Virus record (IMG/VR): IMGVR_UViG_3300025018_000059
Span: 1 to 38,385 of that record
Direction: 5' to 3' (one strand)
DNA: 38,385 nucleotides
Source: a virus
Taxonomy: Duplodnaviria > Caudoviricetes
Part shown: positions 1,256 through 37,126 of the stretch, piece by piece
Layout: each line of letters opens with the position of its first letter
Numbering within the stretch: the first letter of the stretch is position 1
Made by a program: the position numbers and the translations under genes
Notes under the pieces: model-generated
What the model was told of the DNA's origin: nothing
The model's database searches: none
The model's input: the letters and a program-made list of their open reading frames with translations, nothing else

Positions 1256-1284
1256 TTGACAGGTAAAGGAATATATGATACAAT
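1256..1284 (+). promoter_or_regulatory. sigma70-type promoter driving leader RNA copy A
   Basis: TTGACA-17 nt-TACAAT with extended -10 TG. Confidence 0.8.
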
Positions 1285-1290
1285 AAGTGA

Positions 1291-1393
1291 ACATGTGCAG
1301 CCTGATCACTGCATTGTGTAGAAAAATGACCTGTTTTAGTTTACTCCTGATCAGCACCTAGACGGTGGGGGTAAATGATGACAGGTCTTTTTA
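1291..1393 (+). ncRNA. structured leader RNA, copy A (loop-pairing attenuator-like motif)
   Basis: Hairpin TGCAG-CCTGATCA-CTGCA; long hairpin GACCTGT...ACAGGTC+TTTTT containing TGATCAG (1348-1354) and sub-hairpin CACC/GGTG; same architecture at three other loci. Confidence 0.8.
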
Positions 1394-1417
1394 TTGCAGT
1401 AATGCGAGGGGAAAATA

Positions 1418-1639
1418 ATGTCTGATAAAACAAGAATGTACGAGGGATATATTCACAGTAATGGTCAATTACAAATGAAATGTATAGATTTCACTGGTCC
1501 AAATGTAGATAGAAGTAGCCCGTATGTAAAAAAATATTTAGGGATAATCGAAAGTGAAACGTGGAATGATGCAGAAAAATATTTTATGCAAAAGAACAAA
1601 GAGGGGAAAAATGAATATTACTGCAATGATATTAATTAG
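1418..1639 (+). CDS. hypothetical protein downstream of leader copy A
   Basis: 73-aa ORF, GAGGGG RBS. Confidence 0.7.
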   Translation: MSDKTRMYEGYIHSNGQLQMKCIDFTGPNVDRSSPYVKKYLGIIESETWNDAEKYFMQKNKEGKNEYYCNDIN

Positions 1640-1700: not shown

Positions 1701-1834
1701 GTCCGGGTGGCTGAATAGGTAAAGCATAGCTGGCGCGACACGGGATATAAATGCTTGATGGATGTGTTCAAGTATCCGCCCCCACAGTTATGATTTCACA
1801 AATCAATGCAGGGCGCAAATCCCTGCCCCGGACA
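1701..1834 (+). ncRNA. tRNA-like RNA with a long structured insert in place of the anticodon arm
   Basis: Acceptor GTCCGGG/CCCGGAC+A; D-arm-like TGGCTGAATAGGTAAAGC; T-arm-like GCAGGG-CGCAAAT-CCCTGC; no canonical anticodon loop. Confidence 0.7.
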
Positions 1835-4621: not shown

Positions 4622-4650
4622 TTGACAAAACTGTGTAAATAGTATACACT
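4622..4650 (+). promoter_or_regulatory. promoter upstream of the packaging/structural operon
   Basis: A-rich UP element then TTGACA-17 nt-TACACT. Confidence 0.6.
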
Positions 4651-4771
4651 ACCTTATGAATGTGTATAAGAAATATACAAGCGGAAGGCAGGGAACAGAT
4701 GCACGGAAACTTGAGGAAGTAAGCCAGAGTACTATCATAGCGCTCTGGCTTATTGCATTTAGGGGGATAGT

Positions 4772-5242
4772 GTGAGTAAGACAGTAGACAGTGAACACAG
4801 GACAAAGCATTATAAGGACATGATAGAACCTAAACTTAAAGATATTGAAAAATGGTGTGATGAAGGTGCTATAGATGTGGAAATAGCAAAGAGGTTAGGA
4901 ATATCGGTAAAAACACTTTATGAGTATAAAAAATATAGTGAGTTTTTACAGGCGATAAAAAAGGGAAAAGAAAACGCAGATTACAAAGTTGAGAACTCAC
5001 TATATAAAAGAGCAATGGGTTATAGGGTACTAGAGAAAACTATAATCAGAAATGCAGATGGTGAGATAATCAAAGAACAAATACAAGAAAAGCACATCGC
5101 ACCTGACACCACAGCACAGATATTCTGGCTTAAAAACAGAATGAGAGAGAATTGGAATGATAAACAACAAATAGACCTGAACGTAATAAACGTAAACATA
5201 CCAGGGATTACAGACAAAGAGCCTGACAATCCCGATAACTAG
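4772..5242 (+). CDS. terS: terminase small subunit (HTH-type)
   Basis: EIAKRLGISVKTLYEYK HTH; VENSLYKRAMG and PDTTAQIFWLKNR motifs; directly upstream of the large subunit; GTG start. Confidence 0.85.
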   Translation: MSKTVDSEHRTKHYKDMIEPKLKDIEKWCDEGAIDVEIAKRLGISVKTLYEYKKYSEFLQAIKKGKENADYKVENSLYKRAMGYRVLEKTIIRNADGEIIKEQIQEKHIAPDTTAQIFWLKNRMRENWNDKQQIDLNVINVNIPGITDKEPDNPDN

Positions 5243-25087: not shown

Positions 25088-25252
25088 CTACCTCCTATAA
25101 TCTTCTGTCTTGCGATTTCTTAAAAATATCTCAATAAAGTCATTGATCGCTTTATCTGTCATTTCGGTGTAAATATCAGCATCGACAAAATCATGATTAT
25201 ATAGATACACATTCCACTCTGAGATCATGCTGTATAGGTCTGCTTTATTCAT
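25088..25252 (-). CDS. small hypothetical protein (54 aa, not in ORF track)
   Basis: AGGAGG RBS; MNKADLYSMISEWNVYLYNHDFVD... Confidence 0.55.
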   Translation of the reverse strand: MNKADLYSMISEWNVYLYNHDFVDADIYTEMTDKAINDFIEIFLRNRKTEDYRR

Positions 25253-25901
25253 TATTACCCTCCTGAAATCTGTTTTTAAGTACTTGTATTCTAGTGTCTT
25301 TATCCATACCGCTTAGAATTAAATCACCGTTAAGCCTTTCGGCATTATTTAAATCAAGTAATTTTGAATTGACAACTGCATCCCTTGTATTTACACAATC
25401 ATTTACTGCTTGAAAATCTTTTGCAGTCATACCTAAGATTATTTTATTTACCATATCAGCCTCATTAGCATAATCTATAGGACGAGCTTGCGGGTTCATT
25501 TTACATATAGCCGATGTTTGATGTTTATAACCCTCTTTTGCTAATACTCTTGTTGTTATTAAAGTGTTCATTGCTTCAAAGGCTTCTATGTAGGCTTGTT
25601 TAAACTGGATAGCTTTTTTTCCTGTAAAACTCATTATTATCATTGTGATTGATTTTCTATTAAGTAAATAAGCTTTTCTATCTTCACCTTTAGCATCTTT
25701 TATTTTAACGGGCTTAAAATTAAGCCGGTCAAAATTATCTACTACATGAGGGAGTATTTCTTTTTCAATTTTAGCAATAACATTTTTATGATCTTTTTCA
25801 AAAAGCTTAGATATATCTTTAGTGCTTACCCAAGCATCACCACCTTTTTCAAATATCCCAAGTTCAGCAATCCCATCTCTAATACTAACATCGTACTCCA
25901 T
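25245..25901 (-). CDS. rha: Rha-family phage regulatory protein
   Basis: VST.DISKLFEKDHKNVI..I, KDAKGE.RKAYLL, MSFTGKKA.QFK.AYIEAF..M; AGGAG RBS before ATG 25901. Confidence 0.9.
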   Translation of the reverse strand: MEYDVSIRDGIAELGIFEKGGDAWVSTKDISKLFEKDHKNVIAKIEKEILPHVVDNFDRLNFKPVKIKDAKGEDRKAYLLNRKSITMIIMSFTGKKAIQFKQAYIEAFEAMNTLITTRVLAKEGYKHQTSAICKMNPQARPIDYANEADMVNKIILGMTAKDFQAVNDCVNTRDAVVNSKLLDLNNAERLNGDLILSGMDKDTRIQVLKNRFQEGNNE

Positions 25902-25916
25902 ACTATACTCTCCTGA

Positions 25917-26018
25917 TAAAAAAAAGAGTACACTTTTACAACCCATCCCGAAGGATTCACCCGGATTATAATCATGTACTCTTTTTACAACATTGATAAG
26001 GGGTGAACTAATCATGTC
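25917..26018 (-). ncRNA. structured leader RNA, copy B
   Basis: Hairpin loop TTCACCC; long hairpin AAAAAGAGTACA...TGTACTCTTTTT containing GGGTGAA and sub-hairpin TCC-TTCG-GGA. Confidence 0.8.
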
Positions 26019-26023
26019 AAATA

Positions 26024-26052
26024 ATTATACCACGGCACAGGTAAAAAGTCAA
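26024..26052 (-). promoter_or_regulatory. leftward sigma70-type promoter
   Basis: TTGACT-17 nt-TATAAT with extended -10 TG. Confidence 0.8.
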
Positions 26053-26244
26053 GTGCAAAAAATAAATGCTAAAATATCACTTTCCAGCTCAATTTTAAAG
26101 CGTATTTCTCACCCCTCACACCCCTAAATAATCCCCTACAGCCCTCCACAGCGGGCAGTTTAGCCTTAATAGTGTAGATTGTATGAAAACGATAAAAACA
26201 GACGATATTTTGAAAAATAAATAAAAATAAATATTACAAAACAC

Positions 26245-26273
26245 TTGACATGTTTTACACGGCGTGTTATAAT
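26245..26273 (+). promoter_or_regulatory. rightward early promoter
   Basis: A-rich UP element, TTGACA-17 nt-TATAAT, extended -10 TG. Confidence 0.85.
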
Positions 26274-26308: not shown

Positions 26309-26539
26309 ATGAATTACTATTTGAACAATGATGAAAGGTTAGGTGGAAAATGGTTAATATCTGAAACAAATAAATCTATGCAAATTAACCCCGATGAACC
26401 CATTACAGTAGCAGAAGCATTTGAATCTGGAGAATACAAAATTGAAAAATTTAGCTCTGTTATTGGATTAATGCGCTATATTCTGAGTGAAGAGCGTGAC
26501 CCAAAAAAAACATGGAATATATTAAAACAAGAATTATAA
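26309..26539 (+). CDS. hypothetical early protein
   Basis: 76 aa, GGAGG RBS. Confidence 0.75.
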   Translation: MNYYLNNDERLGGKWLISETNKSMQINPDEPITVAEAFESGEYKIEKFSSVIGLMRYILSEERDPKKTWNILKQEL

Positions 26540-26595
26540 CCGAAACGGGGGAAACCCCGTCCGCCGGATACCCGCCCGGCGCTGATGAGGTAGGG
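26539..26595 (+). ncRNA. hammerhead ribozyme, type II topology
   Basis: ACC-GAAA-[CGGGG GAAA CCCCG]-TC-[CGCCGG ATACCCGC CCGGCG]-CTGATGA-GGT; full catalytic core and GUC cleavage triplet (26559-26561). Confidence 0.9.
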
Positions 26596-26948
26596 AAATA
26601 ACAGGAGGCAAGTATGAAAAGAGCATTGAAACAGGCAGAAAGTAAAGTAGTAGGATTACATGCAGGTATTACAGGAGATGTTTCTGACCTGTGGGGAAAA
26701 ATATCTTCTGACCTGTGTGGAAATGTTTCTGACCTGTGTGGAAAAATATCTTCTGGAATGAGTGGAAATGTTACTGGACTGCGGGGAGATGTTACTGGAC
26801 TGCGTGGAAAAATTTCTTCTGGACTGAGTGGAGATGTTTCTGGACTGAGTGGAGATGTAGATGAGTGTGAAATCACAGATGATGAGAGAGTGAACGGCAT
26901 AGATATTTCTGAGTTGATTATACTACCCACTGATGAGGTAGGGAAATA
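26582..26948 (+). repeat. 19-bp direct repeat CTGATGAGGTAGGGAAATA at 26582-26600 and 26930-26948
   Basis: Exact match; both copies are followed by a GGAGGCA RBS. Confidence 0.9.
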
Positions 26949-31966: not shown

Positions 31967-32196
31967 ACGATAATTACCCAGCCGGCGTAAGCGATAATCA
32001 CCCCTATTTCAATCCAGATAATATTAGAGAAAAAAAAGCTGATTTTATCATCGAAGAGTTAAGAATGAAACACGGCGATAATCTCGTCAAGGCCTGTACA
32101 GACTATACACAAATAGCCTTTGATGACTTGCGATATCCGCCGAAAACATGGGAAGACCTGTACAAAATAATACTTGATGATCAGGAGTACACATGA
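31963..32196 (+). CDS. hypothetical protein
   Basis: 77 aa; NYPAG...HPYFN. Confidence 0.7.
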   Translation: MNDNYPAGVSDNHPYFNPDNIREKKADFIIEELRMKHGDNLVKACTDYTQIAFDDLRYPPKTWEDLYKIILDDQEYT

Positions 32197-32483
32197 CAAA
32201 ATCAGAGACAAGTGAAAATTTTAAAACTTTAGAGAGACTTACTGGAATCAGAGTTTATACTTTTAACTCAAATCGTCGTATGCCCCCAGGCTCTATTGGA
32301 TGGATGGACCGTGTAATAATCACCCGTTCACACATTATCTGCATAGAGGACAAAATAGGACGGGACGTACTGAGCGATAAGCAAAAAGAGGTAGGGAAGT
32401 CACTAAAAGCACTTTCCCGTTTCCCTGGCAGCCGTGTTGTATATTATCTCAATTACAGAGTAGACGCTGTATTGTGTAGTTAA
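32193..32483 (+). CDS. VRR-NUC-like PD-(D/E)xK nuclease, C-terminus possibly truncated
   Basis: GWMD...IEDK...LSDKQK; 3' end runs into leader RNA copy C. Confidence 0.65.
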   Translation: MTKSETSENFKTLERLTGIRVYTFNSNRRMPPGSIGWMDRVIITRSHIICIEDKIGRDVLSDKQKEVGKSLKALSRFPGSRVVYYLNYRVDAVLCS

Positions 32484-32553
32484 AAGTCACTTTTTGAGAG
32501 CGCACGTCTACCCCTATTCATAGGGAAGTGCTCTTTGAGAAGTGGCTTTTTTT
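32450..32553 (+). ncRNA. structured leader RNA, copy C
   Basis: TACAG-AGTAGACG-CTGTA; long hairpin AAAAGTCACTTTT...GAGAAGTGGCTTTT containing CGTCTAC and sub-hairpin CCCTA-TTCA-TAGGG. Confidence 0.8.
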
Positions 32554-32573: not shown

Positions 32574-35075
32574 ATGAATTATCAAGAATTTCTAAAATCT
32601 AAAATTGAGCTTGCAAAAGATACGGGGATACAAGTCAACCCTGATGATCTTTGCAAATATTTAAAGCCTCATCAAAGGGACTCTGTTATATGGGCACTGA
32701 AAGGCGGGAAGCGTGCTATATTCTCAAGTTTTGGACTTGGCAAAACATTAACACAAATCGAGATATTAAGACAGTTATTATTGCATGAAGGCGGCAAAGC
32801 CTTGATAGTATGCCCGCTAGGTGTTAAACAGGAATTTACAAGGGATGCTAAAAAATTTGTAAACATGGAAATAAAATATATAAAGCATCTTAGTGAGGCC
32901 ACAGAAGATAATGCAATATATATTACTAATTATGAGCGTGTAAGAGATGGTGATATTGACCCGAAAGAATTTACAGCTACTACACTGGATGAAGCGGCAG
33001 TATTGAGATCATTTGGAAGTAAAACATTTCAAACCTTTTTGGATAAATTTAAGGGTGTAAAATATAAATATGTGGCCACTGCCACACCTTCACCTAACAA
33101 ATATAAAGAGCTTATCCATTATGCTGGTTATTTAGAGATCATGGATACCGGACAGGCTCTGACTAGATTTTTCCAGAGGGATAGCACTCAAGCAAATAAG
33201 TTGACACTATACCCACATAAAGAGGCTGAATTTTGGCTATGGATGTCATCATGGGCTTTATATATAACTAAGCCAAGCGACTTAGGTTACAGTGATGAAG
33301 GCTATGACTTACCACCTTTACAAGTGCATTATCATGAGCTGCCTGTGAATCACTTAGACAATAACTTTGATAAATACGGAGAAAAAGCATTATTCAGAGA
33401 TGCTGCTATATCATTAGCCGATGCATCCAGAGAGAAAAGGGATAGTATTAATGATCGTGTAAATAAAGCTATGGAAATAATCGGAGATAGCCCTGATGAT
33501 AGCTTTATTATTTGGCATGATTTAGAAGCTGAAAGACACGCTATTAAAAAAGTACTCCCGGAAAGTAAAGATGTTTATGGAAGTCAAGACATAGAGCTAA
33601 GGGAAAAAAGGATTATTGATTTTTCAGAGGGTGAATATAAATATTTGTCCACTAAACCTGTTATAGCTGGATCTGGATGTAACTTTCAGCATTATTGTAA
33701 TAAAGCTATATTTCTAGGAATAGGCTATAAATTTGCCGACTTCATACAGGCTGTACATAGAATCTATCGCTTTATGCAAGGTGAGCAAGTAGAAATCCAC
33801 ATTATCTACATGGAATCAGAAGACGAAATACTAAGGACACTACAAAAGAAATGGAGTCAACACAATTATTTAGTTGAAAAAATGACTAAGATAATTCAAG
33901 AAGAGGGATTAAGCAATACAAATATGGAGGCAAAACTAATGCGGTCAATAGGATGTAAAAGAGAGGAGTTGAAAGGTAAATTATATACGGCTGTATATAA
34001 TGACTGTATACAGGAAGCTGAGACAATGGAAAGTAATAGCATTGATTTAATACATACTTCAATCCCATTTAGCAATCATTATGAATATAGCCCTAGCTAT
34101 AATGACCTTGGACATAATACAGACAATGAGAAGTTTTTCGAACAGATGGACTTTTTAACGCCTGAGCTTTACAGGATTTTAAAGCCTGGCCGTGTAGCAG
34201 CGATACATGTAAAAGACCGTGTATTATTTGGAAACGCAACTGGAACAGGGATGCCTACTATTGACCCATTTAGTGATATGACCACGGCTCACTACATGAA
34301 ACACGGCTTCCAGTATTTTGGTCGTATAACTATTATTACTGATGTGGTAAGAGAGAATAATCAAACATATCGGCTTGGCTGGACTGAGAACTCAAAAGAC
34401 GGTACTAAAATGGGCGTAGGATGTCCAGAATATATTTTGCTATTCAGAAAGTTACCCACTGACACTAGCAAGGCTTATGCAGATACGAAAGTGGCAAAAT
34501 CAAAAGAAGATTATACAAGAGCAAACTGGCAGATAGATGCGCATGCTTTTTGGAGATCATCAGGAGATAGACCTATTACCACAGAGGAACTTATGAATAG
34601 CACTATTGAGAGATTACAAGCTGTTTACACAAAATACAGCCGTGCTACAATCTACAATCACAAAGACCATGTTATGATAGCTGATAATTTAGATAAGCAA
34701 AATAAATTGCCCTCTACTTTCATGGTAGTAGCTCCAGGGTCTTGGCATCCTGAGGTATGGGATGATATTAACCGCATGAACACAATGAACGGTAAACAAG
34801 CTAAGAAAAATCTTGCTTACCATATTTGCCCTTTGCAGTTTGATATTGTTGAAAGGGTAATAAACAGATATAGTAATAAAGGTGATTTAGTATTAGATCC
34901 ATTTGCAGGTTTGTTCACAGTACCTTACCAGGCTGTAAAAATGGGTCGTAAAGGATATGGAATTGAACTGAATAGAGATTATTGGATTGACGGCTGCGGT
35001 TACATGAGACTAATCGAGGAGCAGATTGAAACACCGACACTGTTTGATATAGTCGAACCTGAAATGTTAAAGTAA
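32574..35075 (+). CDS. SNF2-like helicase fused to an N4/N6 DNA methyltransferase
   Basis: GLGKT, ITNYER, LDEA, TATP, QAVHRIYRF; C-terminal TSIPF catalytic-like motif, HICPLQ, VLDPFAG SAM motif. Confidence 0.9.
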   Translation: MNYQEFLKSKIELAKDTGIQVNPDDLCKYLKPHQRDSVIWALKGGKRAIFSSFGLGKTLTQIEILRQLLLHEGGKALIVCPLGVKQEFTRDAKKFVNMEIKYIKHLSEATEDNAIYITNYERVRDGDIDPKEFTATTLDEAAVLRSFGSKTFQTFLDKFKGVKYKYVATATPSPNKYKELIHYAGYLEIMDTGQALTRFFQRDSTQANKLTLYPHKEAEFWLWMSSWALYITKPSDLGYSDEGYDLPPLQVHYHELPVNHLDNNFDKYGEKALFRDAAISLADASREKRDSINDRVNKAMEIIGDSPDDSFIIWHDLEAERHAIKKVLPESKDVYGSQDIELREKRIIDFSEGEYKYLSTKPVIAGSGCNFQHYCNKAIFLGIGYKFADFIQAVHRIYRFMQGEQVEIHIIYMESEDEILRTLQKKWSQHNYLVEKMTKIIQEEGLSNTNMEAKLMRSIGCKREELKGKLYTAVYNDCIQEAETMESNSIDLIHTSIPFSNHYEYSPSYNDLGHNTDNEKFFEQMDFLTPELYRILKPGRVAAIHVKDRVLFGNATGTGMPTIDPFSDMTTAHYMKHGFQYFGRITIITDVVRENNQTYRLGWTENSKDGTKMGVGCPEYILLFRKLPTDTSKAYADTKVAKSKEDYTRANWQIDAHAFWRSSGDRPITTEELMNSTIERLQAVYTKYSRATIYNHKDHVMIADNLDKQNKLPSTFMVVAPGSWHPEVWDDINRMNTMNGKQAKKNLAYHICPLQFDIVERVINRYSNKGDLVLDPFAGLFTVPYQAVKMGRKGYGIELNRDYWIDGCGYMRLIEEQIETPTLFDIVEPEMLK

Positions 35076-35390: not shown

Positions 35391-35419
35391 TTGACAATAC
35401 AGTGAAATTAATGTATAAT
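35391..35419 (+). promoter_or_regulatory. consensus sigma70 promoter driving leader RNA copy D
   Basis: TTGACA-17 nt-TATAAT. Confidence 0.85.
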
Positions 35420-35425
35420 AATTAA

Positions 35426-35527
35426 ACATGTGCAGAGTCGAAACTGCCCGATGTAGTAAAAGCCATTTCTTGAAAGGTTGTTTTTCGACCCTGATTAATC
35501 AGGAACCTTTTTGAGAGATGGCTTTTT
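35426..35527 (+). ncRNA. structured leader RNA, copy D
   Basis: GCAG-AGTCGAAA-CTGC; long hairpin AAAAGCCATTTCT...AGAGATGGCTTTT containing TTTCGAC and sub-hairpin CCTGAT/ATCAGG. Confidence 0.8.
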
Positions 35528-35553: not shown

Positions 35554-36078
35554 ATGACAGTAAAAGAAATGAGTCAATTGTTTAATGTATCAGAAGAAAC
35601 AGTAAAGAGATCAATTAGGGATACGTACCCTGATAAAATGCAAAATGGGAAAAGAACTGTATTGACAAAAGATGAAGCTATTTTAATAGGTGAAAATATT
35701 AGAAAAAAGGGATACATACAACCTACACAAAACGTGCAGCTACCTACACAAAATGAGCAGGTAGACAGAATAGACCGTATAGAAAATATGCTTAATAAAC
35801 TTATCTCAGTAATAGCTACACAAGTGGAAACAACTAATAAACTCTTAGAATCAACAAATCAAAAACAACTGGAAATAATTCAAGATTATTACACTATCAA
35901 AGGTTATGCATCAAAGCTCAAAGTACAGTTAGTTTATTCAGAGGCTTTAAAGCTTGGCAGGGAAGCGGCTAAAATGTCCAGAGAGAAAGGAATTGAAATA
36001 CAGAAAATTCCCGATGCTAATTATGATTTTGTGAATAGCTACCATGTTTCAGTGCTTGAAGAAATATTTAGAATATAG
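35554..36078 (+). CDS. antirepressor-like DNA-binding protein
   Basis: N-terminal HTH MTVKEMSQLFNVSEETVKR; C-terminal YYTIKGYA...LGREA.K.SR..G...IPD..Y..VNSYH domain seen on phage antirepressor-type proteins; GAGG RBS supports a start at 35554. Confidence 0.7.
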   Translation: MTVKEMSQLFNVSEETVKRSIRDTYPDKMQNGKRTVLTKDEAILIGENIRKKGYIQPTQNVQLPTQNEQVDRIDRIENMLNKLISVIATQVETTNKLLESTNQKQLEIIQDYYTIKGYASKLKVQLVYSEALKLGREAAKMSREKGIEIQKIPDANYDFVNSYHVSVLEEIFRI

Positions 36079-36089
36079 GACGGTAAACA

Positions 36090-36260
36090 ATGACAACAGA
36101 AATATTCACAAAAGATGTATTAAAAGAGATTGAAAATGAAAATCCTAACATATTTATAAATTTTGATTTACAGTTTAGTAAATATAATATTATTGGACAT
36201 GAATAAATATTCAGTGTTGACAAATTAAAAAAGATTATTGAAATAATGGAAGGTGAATAA
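36090..36260 (+). pseudogene. small ORF with one in-frame TAA (36204-36206)
   Basis: MTTEIFTK...IIGHE*IFSVDKLKKIIEIMEGE*; the second stop couples to the next ATG. Confidence 0.35.
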
Positions 36261-37126
36261 TGGCGCAAAGAAGAATGTTCTCAATGCACATTATAGACAG
36301 TGATGCATTTCTTGATATGCCACAATCTACTCAAAATTTATATTTTCACATGTCAATGCGGGCTGATGATGATGGATTTGTATCAAACCCTAAAAAGATA
36401 ATGAAAATATTAGGATCCTCAGACGATGATTTAAAACTTCTTATCGGTAAGCGGTTTATTATTGGATTTGAAAGCGGTATAGTGGTTATTAAACATTGGA
36501 AAATACACAACTATATTGCAAAAGATAGGTACAATAAAACTAGATATGAAGAAGAATTAAATCAATTACAAATTAAAGATAATGGCTCGTATACAGAATG
36601 TATACAAAGTGTTGACACAGGTAAGGTAAGGTTAGTCAAGGTAAGTCAAGTTAAGGAAAGTAAAGAATGTATATCTGATAAATCAGATAAAGACATACAC
36701 CTTGAAACTTCTTTTAATAAATTATGGGATATTGAACAAAACAAGGAATCAAAAGCCAGAGCATTAAAGAACTACAAGAAAGCATTAAAACTTATACCTC
36801 ATGACACTATCCTAAACCGATGGCAATTGTATTATGATAACGCCCTCATAAAATACAGCGATAAGAAATATATAACCCGCCTTGCTAACTGGTTAGGAGA
36901 GAAAGCTGGATACTTAGACGACCCTGAGACTATCAAACAATACACACTATCAGAGATCATGAAAGAGAGAGAAAATTATAGGATAATCAAGGGCCACATT
37001 GCACCGGATAACTGGGCACCTCCTGCCGGCTGGGATGACTATGTCAATGATAATCAATCTGTAATAGATCAGTACTGGAAAGTATACAATGATAATCAAG
37101 AGAGAATGAGAAGGGAGGGAATATGA
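36260..37126 (+). CDS. phage replisome organizer / replication initiator
   Basis: MAQRRMFS..IIDSDAFLDMPQSTQNLYFH.SMRADDDGFV, VIKHWKIHNYI.KDRY. Confidence 0.92.
   Translation: MAQRRMFSMHIIDSDAFLDMPQSTQNLYFHMSMRADDDGFVSNPKKIMKILGSSDDDLKLLIGKRFIIGFESGIVVIKHWKIHNYIAKDRYNKTRYEEELNQLQIKDNGSYTECIQSVDTGKVRLVKVSQVKESKECISDKSDKDIHLETSFNKLWDIEQNKESKARALKNYKKALKLIPHDTILNRWQLYYDNALIKYSDKKYITRLANWLGEKAGYLDDPETIKQYTLSEIMKERENYRIIKGHIAPDNWAPPAGWDDYVNDNQSVIDQYWKVYNDNQERMRREGI

What the first reader, a model, noticed from the sequence alone, without database searches (positions are those of the whole stretch)
1256..1417. Family of four leader RNAs, each with its own 7-nt loop/target pair (copy A; others at 25917-26018 minus, 32450-32553, 35426-35527)
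Seen: four loci with little primary-sequence identity share one layout: hairpin 1 with a 7-8 nt loop, a TGTA(G) linker, then a long interrupted hairpin opened by an A-tract and closed by a T-tract, then an RBS and gene. Three have a near-consensus promoter just upstream. The long hairpin is capped by a 7-nt single strand immediately followed by a small sub-hairpin. In every copy that strand is the exact reverse complement of the hairpin-1 loop, and the word differs each time: A CTGATCA(1302-1308)/TGATCAG(1348-1354); B TTCACCC/GGGTGAA; C GTAGACG/CGTCTAC; D GTCGAAA/TTTCGAC. Four fully compensatory 7-bp pairs in the same structural slot are very unlikely by chance. Established: P1/P7 C4 RNA and P4 CI RNA are small RNAs cut from their own leader that pair with short leader sites and silence antirepressor/lytic operons, with specificity set by the short words. 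Inference: this is either a cis pseudoknot attenuator or a trans-acting guide/target switch, used as four non-cross-reacting channels controlling Rha, an antirepressor-like gene, the helicase-methylase and the accessory operon. It could act as RNA-based immunity or timing in a phage with no recognisable CI. Copy A's word contains the palindrome TGATCA, so it could also self-dimerise. I cannot tell whether the motif is already in Rfam.
Basis: partly seen in the sequence, partly recalled or inferred. Interest (0 to 1): 0.92.

Follow-up and report, generated by a model that had tools for sequence, protein, structure and literature searches.

The report
Four lock-and-key phage leader RNAs
An uncultured phage puts four folded RNA leaders in front of four gene sets, each ending in a predicted transcription stop hairpin that carries the exact 7-letter mirror of a loop upstream, with a different word each time; related phage DNA keeps the design with other words, so it likely is an RNA on/off switch with its own code per gene set.

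Summary
Four ~100-nt leaders (A–D) in a complete 38-kb phage share one layout: 5' hairpin, long stem ending in a U-tract, then RBS and gene. Each hairpin loop pairs 7 of 7 Watson–Crick with a strand in the stem's cap, and the four words differ. One correction: the "TGTA(G) linker" is mostly the base of hairpin 1. A scan blind to complementarity found the design in related loci: 18 of 20 promoter-linked long terminator hairpins carry a cognate word of 7 nt or more (1.1 expected), mostly before antirepressor-type genes. Near-identical leaders differ mainly at the words. One subfamily has an internal promoter that would make the key hairpin alone. There is no Rfam hit. The second downstream target that defines C4 and CI is absent. 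Likely mechanism (untested): the word pairs in the nascent RNA and delays terminator zipping, so transcription reads through; accumulated terminated RNA then binds new leaders in trans and shuts them. No CI or integrase was found, and no RNA data exist. It works like P4 CI, P1 C4 or the pT181 attenuator but belongs to none of these families.

The parts
1256..1284 (+). Copy A sigma70-type promoter, 11/12 with extended -10
1291..1319 (+). Copy A hairpin 1 (lock); loop word CTGATCA at 1302-1308; predicted start at 1291
1323..1392 (+). Copy A long hairpin (predicted terminator): A-tract, stem, anti-word 1348-1354, sub-hairpin 1355-1367, U5 tract
1418..1639 (+). 73-aa ORF of no known family behind copy A
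26024..26052 (-). Copy B promoter, 11/12 with extended -10, divergent from the 12/12 promoter at 26245-26273
25990..26017 (-). Copy B hairpin 1; loop word TTCACCC at 26007-26001
25918..25986 (-). Copy B long hairpin: anti-word 25962-25956, UUCG sub-hairpin 25955-25946, U8 tract
25245..25901 (-). Rha-family regulator (218 aa) behind copy B
   Evidence: PF09669 E 1.4e-22
32440..32445 (+). Copy C -10-like hexamer without a good -35; C may also be reached by read-through from upstream
   Evidence: 8/12
32450..32478 (+). Copy C hairpin 1; loop word GTAGACG at 32460-32466; overlaps the last codons of ORF 32193-32483
32482..32553 (+). Copy C long hairpin: anti-word 32505-32511, sub-hairpin 32512-32525, U7 tract
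32574..35075 (+). SNF2-helicase / N6-N4 methyltransferase fusion behind copy C
35391..35419 (+). Copy D promoter, 12/12
35426..35453 (+). Copy D hairpin 1; loop word GTCGAAA at 35437-35443
35458..35527 (+). Copy D long hairpin: anti-word 35483-35489, sub-hairpin 35490-35503, U5 tract
35554..36078 (+). 174-aa HTH / antirepressor-like ORF behind copy D, followed by a DnaD-like replication gene (36260-37126)
   Evidence: PHROG 4936 E 1.2e-9; PHROG 8489

Best explanation
Each leader is likely a self-controlled transcription attenuator: its first hairpin loop and the cap of its downstream stop hairpin carry exactly matching 7-letter words, this pairing would let transcription run on, and finished leader RNA would later block it and switch the genes off. 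Steps. (1) Shown in sequence: promoter, hairpin 1, long stem with U-tract, RBS 10-15 nt further on and outside the stem. (2) Predicted by folding: while the RNA is about 62-90 nt long the word pairs with the anti-word, closing the 5' arm of the stem into a loop. (3) Inferred: the 3' arm, still held by RNA polymerase, must wind about two turns around that closed arm, so terminator formation is delayed and the polymerase escapes. This gives ON in a cell with no leader RNA. (4) Inferred: terminated ~100-nt leaders, or in one subfamily a hairpin-only RNA from an internal promoter, accumulate and pair with the hairpin-1 loop of new transcripts before the cis anti-word emerges. The terminator then forms and makes more small RNA, a positive-feedback OFF state. 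(5) Inferred: the word sets specificity, giving separate channels within a genome and exclusion or timing between phages.
For: Pairing is perfect and word-specific: cognate duplexes -6.9 to -9.7 kcal/mol, non-cognate 0.7 to -2.3 (B's target was off by one base). Blind scan of 355,836 bases: 38 long hairpins, 18 of 20 promoter-linked ones with a word of 7 nt or more (15 of 17 outside the window), 1.1 expected; 6 of 18 without a promoter. Erf loci: 3 of 7 promoter-linked vs 0.59 expected. Control helicase loci, 1.28 Mb: 25 hairpins, none with both promoter and word. 24 distinct words in 25 leaders that were selected for having a word. Near-identical leaders differ chiefly by compensatory changes in the words: L194/L202 and the two L188 paralogues. 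L200 and L201 are identical over about 880 nt except one SNP and the hairpin cap. The word helix has probability 0.5-1.0 at intermediate lengths and 0 once the 3' arm is made. An internal TTGACA-18-(-10) promoter, 11/12, starting at the hairpin base occurs in 5 of 25 leaders (shuffle rate 0.0026), with TTGACA invariant in 7 of 7 aligned members. In 4 of 25 leaders the word cannot reach its partner on an intact stem even fully extended. 16 of 89 long-hairpin pairs are G-U on the transcribed strand.
Against: No transcript, termination or binding data. In the four window copies a cis pseudoknot on an intact stem is not excluded by distance (18-19 nt vs 17-18 bp). The folding model cannot represent pseudoknots or kinetics, and A's helix reaches only 0.48. 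The window copies lack a good internal promoter (scores 0-4 of 12), and the five leaders that have one are close relatives, so they count as about one event. No integrase (0 hits at E<=1) and no CI were found among the 58 and 40 ORFs scanned, so a lysogenic state needing immunity is not shown. L201 lacks cognate pairing, and L207 and L230 have only 6 pairs. The closest Rha relative (L246, 54%) has no leader, and 5 of 26 upstream regions had no such hairpin. A covariance model of A-D finds 0 hits in 47 related loci, so homology with the other leaders rests on layout and shared downstream gene family, not on sequence.
Confidence: 0.5

Rival explanations
1. Cis-only kinetic attenuator. The word pairing sets a fixed or protein-modulated read-through rate (for example by Rha, Nus factors or ribosomes), no RNA acts in trans, and the words drift by compensatory change.
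For: Co-transcriptional folding supports a cis helix. Window copies have no clear internal promoter. No temperate-phage markers were found. G001 paralogues are not fully orthogonal.
Against: Words change faster than their flanks in near-identical leaders, which drift alone does not predict. An internal promoter that would make key-only RNA makes little sense for a cis-only device.
Confidence: 0.22
2. The product is a stable ~100-nt structured small RNA with a compact pseudoknot fold, or an RNase III or RNase P processing substrate. The pairing is tertiary structure, not a switch.
For: Loop 1 nt, helix 7 bp and no gap to the hairpin-1 3' strand in A, C and D fit classical H-type pseudoknot geometry (seen in sequence; geometry rule recalled). 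The pseudoknot on an intact stem is not excluded for A-D. A stem of about 20 bp suits RNase III (recalled).
Against: Layouts vary widely (anti-word before or after the sub-hairpin, apical, or two words), invariant core bases are few, the cis contact is out of reach in 4 of 25, and the leaders sit directly before an RBS.
Confidence: 0.15
3. Opposite sign, IsrK-like: termination is the default and cognate RNA in trans activates downstream expression.
For: IsrK is a terminated phage leader that acts in trans to activate its own read-through mRNA ahead of an antirepressor cascade (PMC4825925, section 21 read).
Against: IsrK acts on translation through RBS access, whereas here the RBS is outside the hairpin. 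The stems are -22 to -26 kcal/mol with U5-U8 tracts and should terminate without help. A trans partner bound to the lock would free, not block, the terminator (inference).
Confidence: 0.11
4. Ordinary bidirectional terminators with chance complementarity.
For: A 7-nt match arises in about 7% of non-cognate pairs (99 of 1406) and in 4 of 25 control hairpins.
Against: 4 of 4 copies in the same structural slot; 18 of 20 vs 1.1 expected; compensatory changes.
Confidence: 0.02

Closest known systems
Satellite phage P4 immunity: CI RNA with seqA and seqC (as described in PMC4825925 section 21; further detail recalled)
   Same: A small RNA from the phage's own leader pairs with a complementary site upstream in the same leader and causes premature termination before early or replication genes.
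   Different: No seqC-like second site downstream. The key lies on the cap of a predicted intrinsic terminator. No processing is evident. Four parallel words occur in one genome. No Rfam or sequence match.
P1/P7 C4 antisense RNA (Rfam RF01695) with c4-a1b1 and c4-2 motifs (PMC12197685 passage; PMC2864571 table and supplement passages; PMC5737381 passage)
   Same: Three-way-junction RNA with short single-stranded words, placed before antirepressor genes; word changes define heteroimmunity. The two-word relatives mirror an a/b pair upstream and a'/b' in the cloverleaf.
   Different: C4 blocks translation around the ant RBS; here the word is not repeated near the RBS and control looks transcriptional. 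No cmscan hit at E<=1 in the window or E<=5 in 20 related loci.
IsrK of Salmonella Gifsy-1 (PMC4825925)
   Same: A terminated leader RNA acting in trans on its own read-through transcript ahead of antirepressor genes.
   Different: IsrK activates translation; here repression of read-through is predicted. No Rfam hit.
pT181-type antisense transcription attenuator (PMC3753616 passages)
   Same: A loop pairing with an RNA in trans decides whether an intrinsic terminator forms, and loop changes give orthogonal pairs.
   Different: pT181 uses a counter-transcript from the opposite strand (recalled). Here the key is on the same strand, inside the terminator itself, and only 7 nt (or 7+6 nt) long.
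Pistol ribozyme (recalled topology)
   Same: The hairpin-1 loop pairs with a junction strand next to a small hairpin.
   Different: No Rfam hit, the recalled catalytic bases are not seen, the stem is far longer and it ends in a U-tract.
Uncharacterised candidate RNAs of Fremin et al. 2023 (PMC10690425, supplementary file 5: e.g. DNAVirus_2595, 2873, 3515, 8737 upstream of AntA, Rha, Bro-N or KilA genes)
   Same: Structured RNAs within 25 bp upstream of antirepressor-type genes.
   Different: In the passages seen no pairing code or mechanism is described. The three rows read come from human-gut phages and are flagged as not terminators. Their alignments could not be read, so overlap is untested.

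Membership tests
C4 antisense RNA / c4-a1b1 / c4-2 | Match to the Rfam covariance models | tested here: not met
   No such hit
C4 antisense RNA / c4-a1b1 / c4-2 | Target repeated downstream around the antirepressor RBS | tested here: not met
   2 of 25 cognate vs 44 of 600 non-cognate within 200 nt; genome-wide word positions
C4 antisense RNA / c4-a1b1 / c4-2 | Three-way junction with short single-stranded words matching upstream sites | tested here: met
   One word in window copies, two words in many relatives
C4 antisense RNA / c4-a1b1 / c4-2 | Located before an antirepressor operon | tested here: inconclusive
   B (Rha), D (antirepressor-like) and several relatives yes; A and C no
C4 / P4 CI RNA | Released by RNase P processing (recalled) | not testable with these tools
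   No RNA run listed
P4 CI RNA | Complementary site upstream in the same leader (seqA) | tested here: met
   7 of 7 pairs in all four copies
P4 CI RNA | Second complementary site downstream (seqC) | tested here: not met
P4 CI RNA | Trans action that gives superinfection immunity | not testable with these tools
   Indirect hints only
IsrK | Rfam match | tested here: not met
pT181-type attenuator | Antisense RNA from an opposite-strand promoter over the leader | tested here: inconclusive
   No strong opposite-strand promoter next to the leaders in the list of sites at 11/12, or 10/12 with TG; one 9/12 site on the minus strand at 1299-1270
Self-cleaving ribozymes (pistol and others) | Rfam match and invariant catalytic core | tested here: not met
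   Only a separate hammerhead at 26538-26599; 7 invariant columns in six leaders of this layout
Intrinsic terminator | GC-closed stem followed by a U-tract | tested here: met
   U5, U8, U7, U5 after stems of -22 to -26 kcal/mol; not listed by the short-loop scanner because the cap exceeds 8 nt
Intrinsic terminator | Transcripts actually end at the U-tract | not testable with these tools
   No RNA data

The most novel reading that the evidence does not exclude
A repressor-free, all-RNA regulatory system: a widespread, undescribed class of phage attenuators in which the terminator hairpin is its own trans-acting repressor, antitermination is a topological lock on a two-turn stem, and swappable 7-nt (or 7+6-nt) word cassettes give several orthogonal channels per genome and immunity groups between phages. 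Here four such channels would replace a CI protein.
Probability: 0.3. Interest if true: 0.87.

Novelty: new variant of a known kind. Interest (0 to 1): 0.67.

Why it matters
RNA-based phage immunity is known from a few enterobacterial systems (P1/P7 C4, P4 CI, IsrK). If the reading holds, a much more compact version (about 100 nt, promoter to terminator) is spread over environmental phages, occurs several times per genome with different codes, and gates antirepressor, Rha, methylase and replication genes. That would explain how phages with no recognisable CI time or shut their early genes. It would also supply natural orthogonal transcription attenuators, which PMC3753616 calls scarce. The near-consensus sigma70 promoters make it directly testable with purified E. 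coli polymerase.

Tried and rejected
Pattern scans of viral contigs. A hairpin-1 pattern gave 106 loci that looked like chance: longest match 0 in 32, 4 in 38, 5 in 27, 6 in 6 and 9 in 3, and in the rows seen (output partly cut) none had the layout. Two stricter patterns gave 0. blastn of leader D and of L194 against cultured phages found nothing useful. Rha as a single query found no viral locus. Three Rha-bearing phage records from the annotated collection (L257-L259) showed no such hairpin. The covariance model of A-D found no relatives. No RNA holder was listed for the stretch, which is no evidence either way. TD-1/TD-2 of Treponema was considered from memory of A/U-rich stems; the passages of PMC1950547 give no sequence, so it could not be compared. 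Pistol ribozyme was rejected (no Rfam hit). A special role for A's palindrome was rejected, since it is seen in one copy only. A counter-transcript was not supported. The host could not be fixed: the nearest named Rha relative is from a Spirochaetota MAG (48%), and capsid relatives are Bacillota (59-60%) and Spirochaetia (56%). Literature searches for this design: searches returned 1 paper each; searches returned 0; one search returned 6 general attenuator papers; one search returned C4 mentions; led to PMC10690425. None of the listings described it, but most classic P1, P4 and N15 papers are not in the library. The supplement of PMC5737381 and the alignment files of PMC10690425 could not be read and may hold a related motif.

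Full report
Setting. The window is a complete phage record with a 127-bp terminal overlap and 36.7% GC. It is held by one aquifer-metagenome run and has no close relative (best capsid relative 63%). It encodes siphovirus-type head genes, Erf, Gam, methylases, an SNF2-methylase fusion, a DnaD-like protein and Rha (58 of the 131 listed ORFs scanned; 40 ORFs). No CI repressor or integrase was recognised (PF00589 0 hits at E<=1), though many small ORFs have no family. The host is unknown; hints point to Spirochaetota or Bacillota.

Observation. All four leaders are as described. In A, B and D the predicted start lies 7 nt after the -10 box and begins with the same five bases. The word starts 10-11 nt later, the anti-word lies 23-26 nt after the A-tract, and the RNA is 100-104 nt to the end of a U5-U8 run. 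All 28 word pairs are Watson-Crick, whereas 16 of 89 pairs in the long hairpins are G-U; the G-U pairs point to RNA on the transcribed strand. A descriptor blind to complementarity singles out exactly these four among 5 window hits. Folding z-scores are -3.9 to -5.2, and there is no fifth copy. Cognate duplexes are -6.9 to -9.7 kcal/mol and non-cognate 0.7 to -2.3. Rfam gives no hit on the leaders, only a separate type II hammerhead.

Relatives. DNA patterns failed, so I followed the protein behind copy D (48 loci, one of them the window itself). Of 26 upstream regions examined, 5 had no U-tract or closing hairpin and were dropped. Of the other 21, 16 had a cognate match of 7 nt or more, against 10 of 420 non-cognate pairings; B was missed there by a mis-fold, and L201, L207, L209 and L230 fell short. 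A fold-based scan blind to complementarity covered the window, L188-L229 and five fuller records (355,836 bases). It found 38 long hairpins: 18 of the 20 with an upstream promoter (at least 9/12) had such a word, 15 of 17 outside the window, against 1.1 expected from shuffled 5' regions; 6 of 18 without a promoter did. The same scan gave 3 of 7 (0.59 expected) in 80 Erf loci and 0 with both features among 25 hairpins in 80 helicase loci. Downstream genes of several relatives are AntA, Rha or antirepressor types. L188, G001 and G002 carry two or three leaders each. Layouts vary: anti-word before the sub-hairpin as here (L213, L230, L273, L284), after it, apical, or two words. None matched Rfam. 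Against generality: the closest Rha relative lacks a leader, and a model of A-D does not detect the relatives, so common descent is inferred from layout and gene context only.

Evidence on specificity. Among 25 leaders chosen for having a word, 24 primary words are distinct. L194 and L202 are nearly identical yet differ by compensatory changes in one word pair. The two L188 paralogues keep promoter and stems but change their word with compensation. A and D share the hairpin-1 stem but not the loop. L200 and L201 are identical over about 880 nt apart from one SNP and the inner cap, which in L201 carries the L194-type anti-word. This is either a real lock/key mismatch or two cassette alleles mis-phased in assembly; the far end of L201 also looks chimeric by eye. 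Either reading means caps are exchanged in otherwise identical DNA. Orthogonality is good in the window (at most 6 nt) but imperfect in G001.

Mechanism. The RBS is outside the hairpin and the word is not repeated downstream (2 of 25 vs 44 of 600), so control looks transcriptional. Equilibrium folding of growing transcripts puts the word helix at probability 0.9-1.0 (B, C), about 0.8 (D) and 0.5 (A) between about 62 and 90 nt, and at 0 once the 3' arm is complete (a nested model without pseudoknots or kinetics). That helix closes the 5' arm of a 17-18-bp core stem, plus its A/U arms, into a loop. Zipping would need about two turns of a strand still held by polymerase (inference from A-form geometry), which suggests kinetic antitermination. 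In 4 of 25 leaders the contact is out of reach on an intact stem, but in A-D it is not excluded. The best hint of trans action is a subfamily (L189, L191, L194, L200, L202, plus L201 and L210 by alignment) with an 11/12 promoter inside the lock hairpins whose start falls at the hairpin base. It would make a key-only RNA that always terminates. These are related sequences, and the window copies lack such a promoter (B shows a perfect -35 with a weak -10 by eye). I therefore favour cis antitermination opposed by cognate RNA in trans (0.5) over cis-only (0.22), structural RNA or processing site (0.15), trans activation (0.11) and chance (0.02).

Comparison. It works like P4 CI and P1/P7 C4 (a leader-derived RNA with short words before antirepressor genes) and like pT181 (pairing decides termination). 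It fails membership: no Rfam match, no downstream second target, and the key is part of the terminator on the same strand. What I saw of papers: PMC4825925, one section in full and passages; PMC12197685, PMC8201110, PMC3753616, PMC1950547 and PMC5737381, passages; PMC2864571, passages and supplement passages; PMC10690425, passages and rows of two supplementary tables. RNase P processing, the pistol topology, pseudoknot geometry rules and the pT181 counter-transcript are recalled. Ten literature searches showed no description of this design, but the classic P1, P4 and N15 papers are mostly absent from the library. PMC10690425 lists uncharacterised candidates before AntA and Rha genes whose alignments I could not read. 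Earlier notes of this scan report similar kissing-loop terminator leaders in other phages. They are unchecked leads, not support, but they suggest the class is recurrent rather than unique to this genome.

Verdict. The feature is real, non-random and apparently undescribed as a family: a new variant of RNA-based phage gene control, with the mechanism untested. Interest 0.67.

Noticed in passing
window 26538-26599 (+): Type II hammerhead ribozyme (39.6 bits, above the gathering score) between the first two genes of the rightward early operon. G001 (L232:3298-3361), which has three lock/key leaders, also carries a type II hammerhead upstream of its recombination genes.
   Followed up: partly
window 1701-1834 (+): tRNA-like ends (acceptor stem, D-arm-like and T-arm-like parts) enclosing an insert of about 90 nt, downstream of the ORF gated by leader A. 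ARAGORN and Rfam give nothing; z -0.93. A second non-coding stretch follows at 1836-1980.
   Followed up: partly
window 4622-4775 (+): Promoter-like site and strongly folded leader (z -5.15) before the terminase small subunit. The long hairpin reaches the RBS, and its loop could pair 6-7 nt with the spacer between RBS and start codon (seen by eye). Possibly a translational switch.
   Followed up: partly
window 32193-32483 (+): 96-aa ORF that looks VRR-NUC-like by eye (no Pfam or PHROG hit). Its last codons overlap hairpin 1 of copy C and its stop sits at the A-tract, so translation could affect copy C.
   Followed up: no
L200:741-808 and L201:216-281: Otherwise identical loci with the inner cap of the terminator hairpin swapped for one of another specificity.
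   Followed up: partly
L252:11206 and L256:890: Two-word leaders with 10+9-nt and 7+7-nt matches in more distant Rha-bearing phage loci; no Rfam hit.
   Followed up: no
L222:3936-3963 (G002): A CRISPR-DR4 repeat match (50.1 bits) in a phage record that also has three lock/key leaders.
   Followed up: no
window 26024-26273: Divergent strong promoters (11/12 and 12/12) in a lambda-like switch position, with Rha behind an RNA leader where a CI gene would usually sit.
   Followed up: partly
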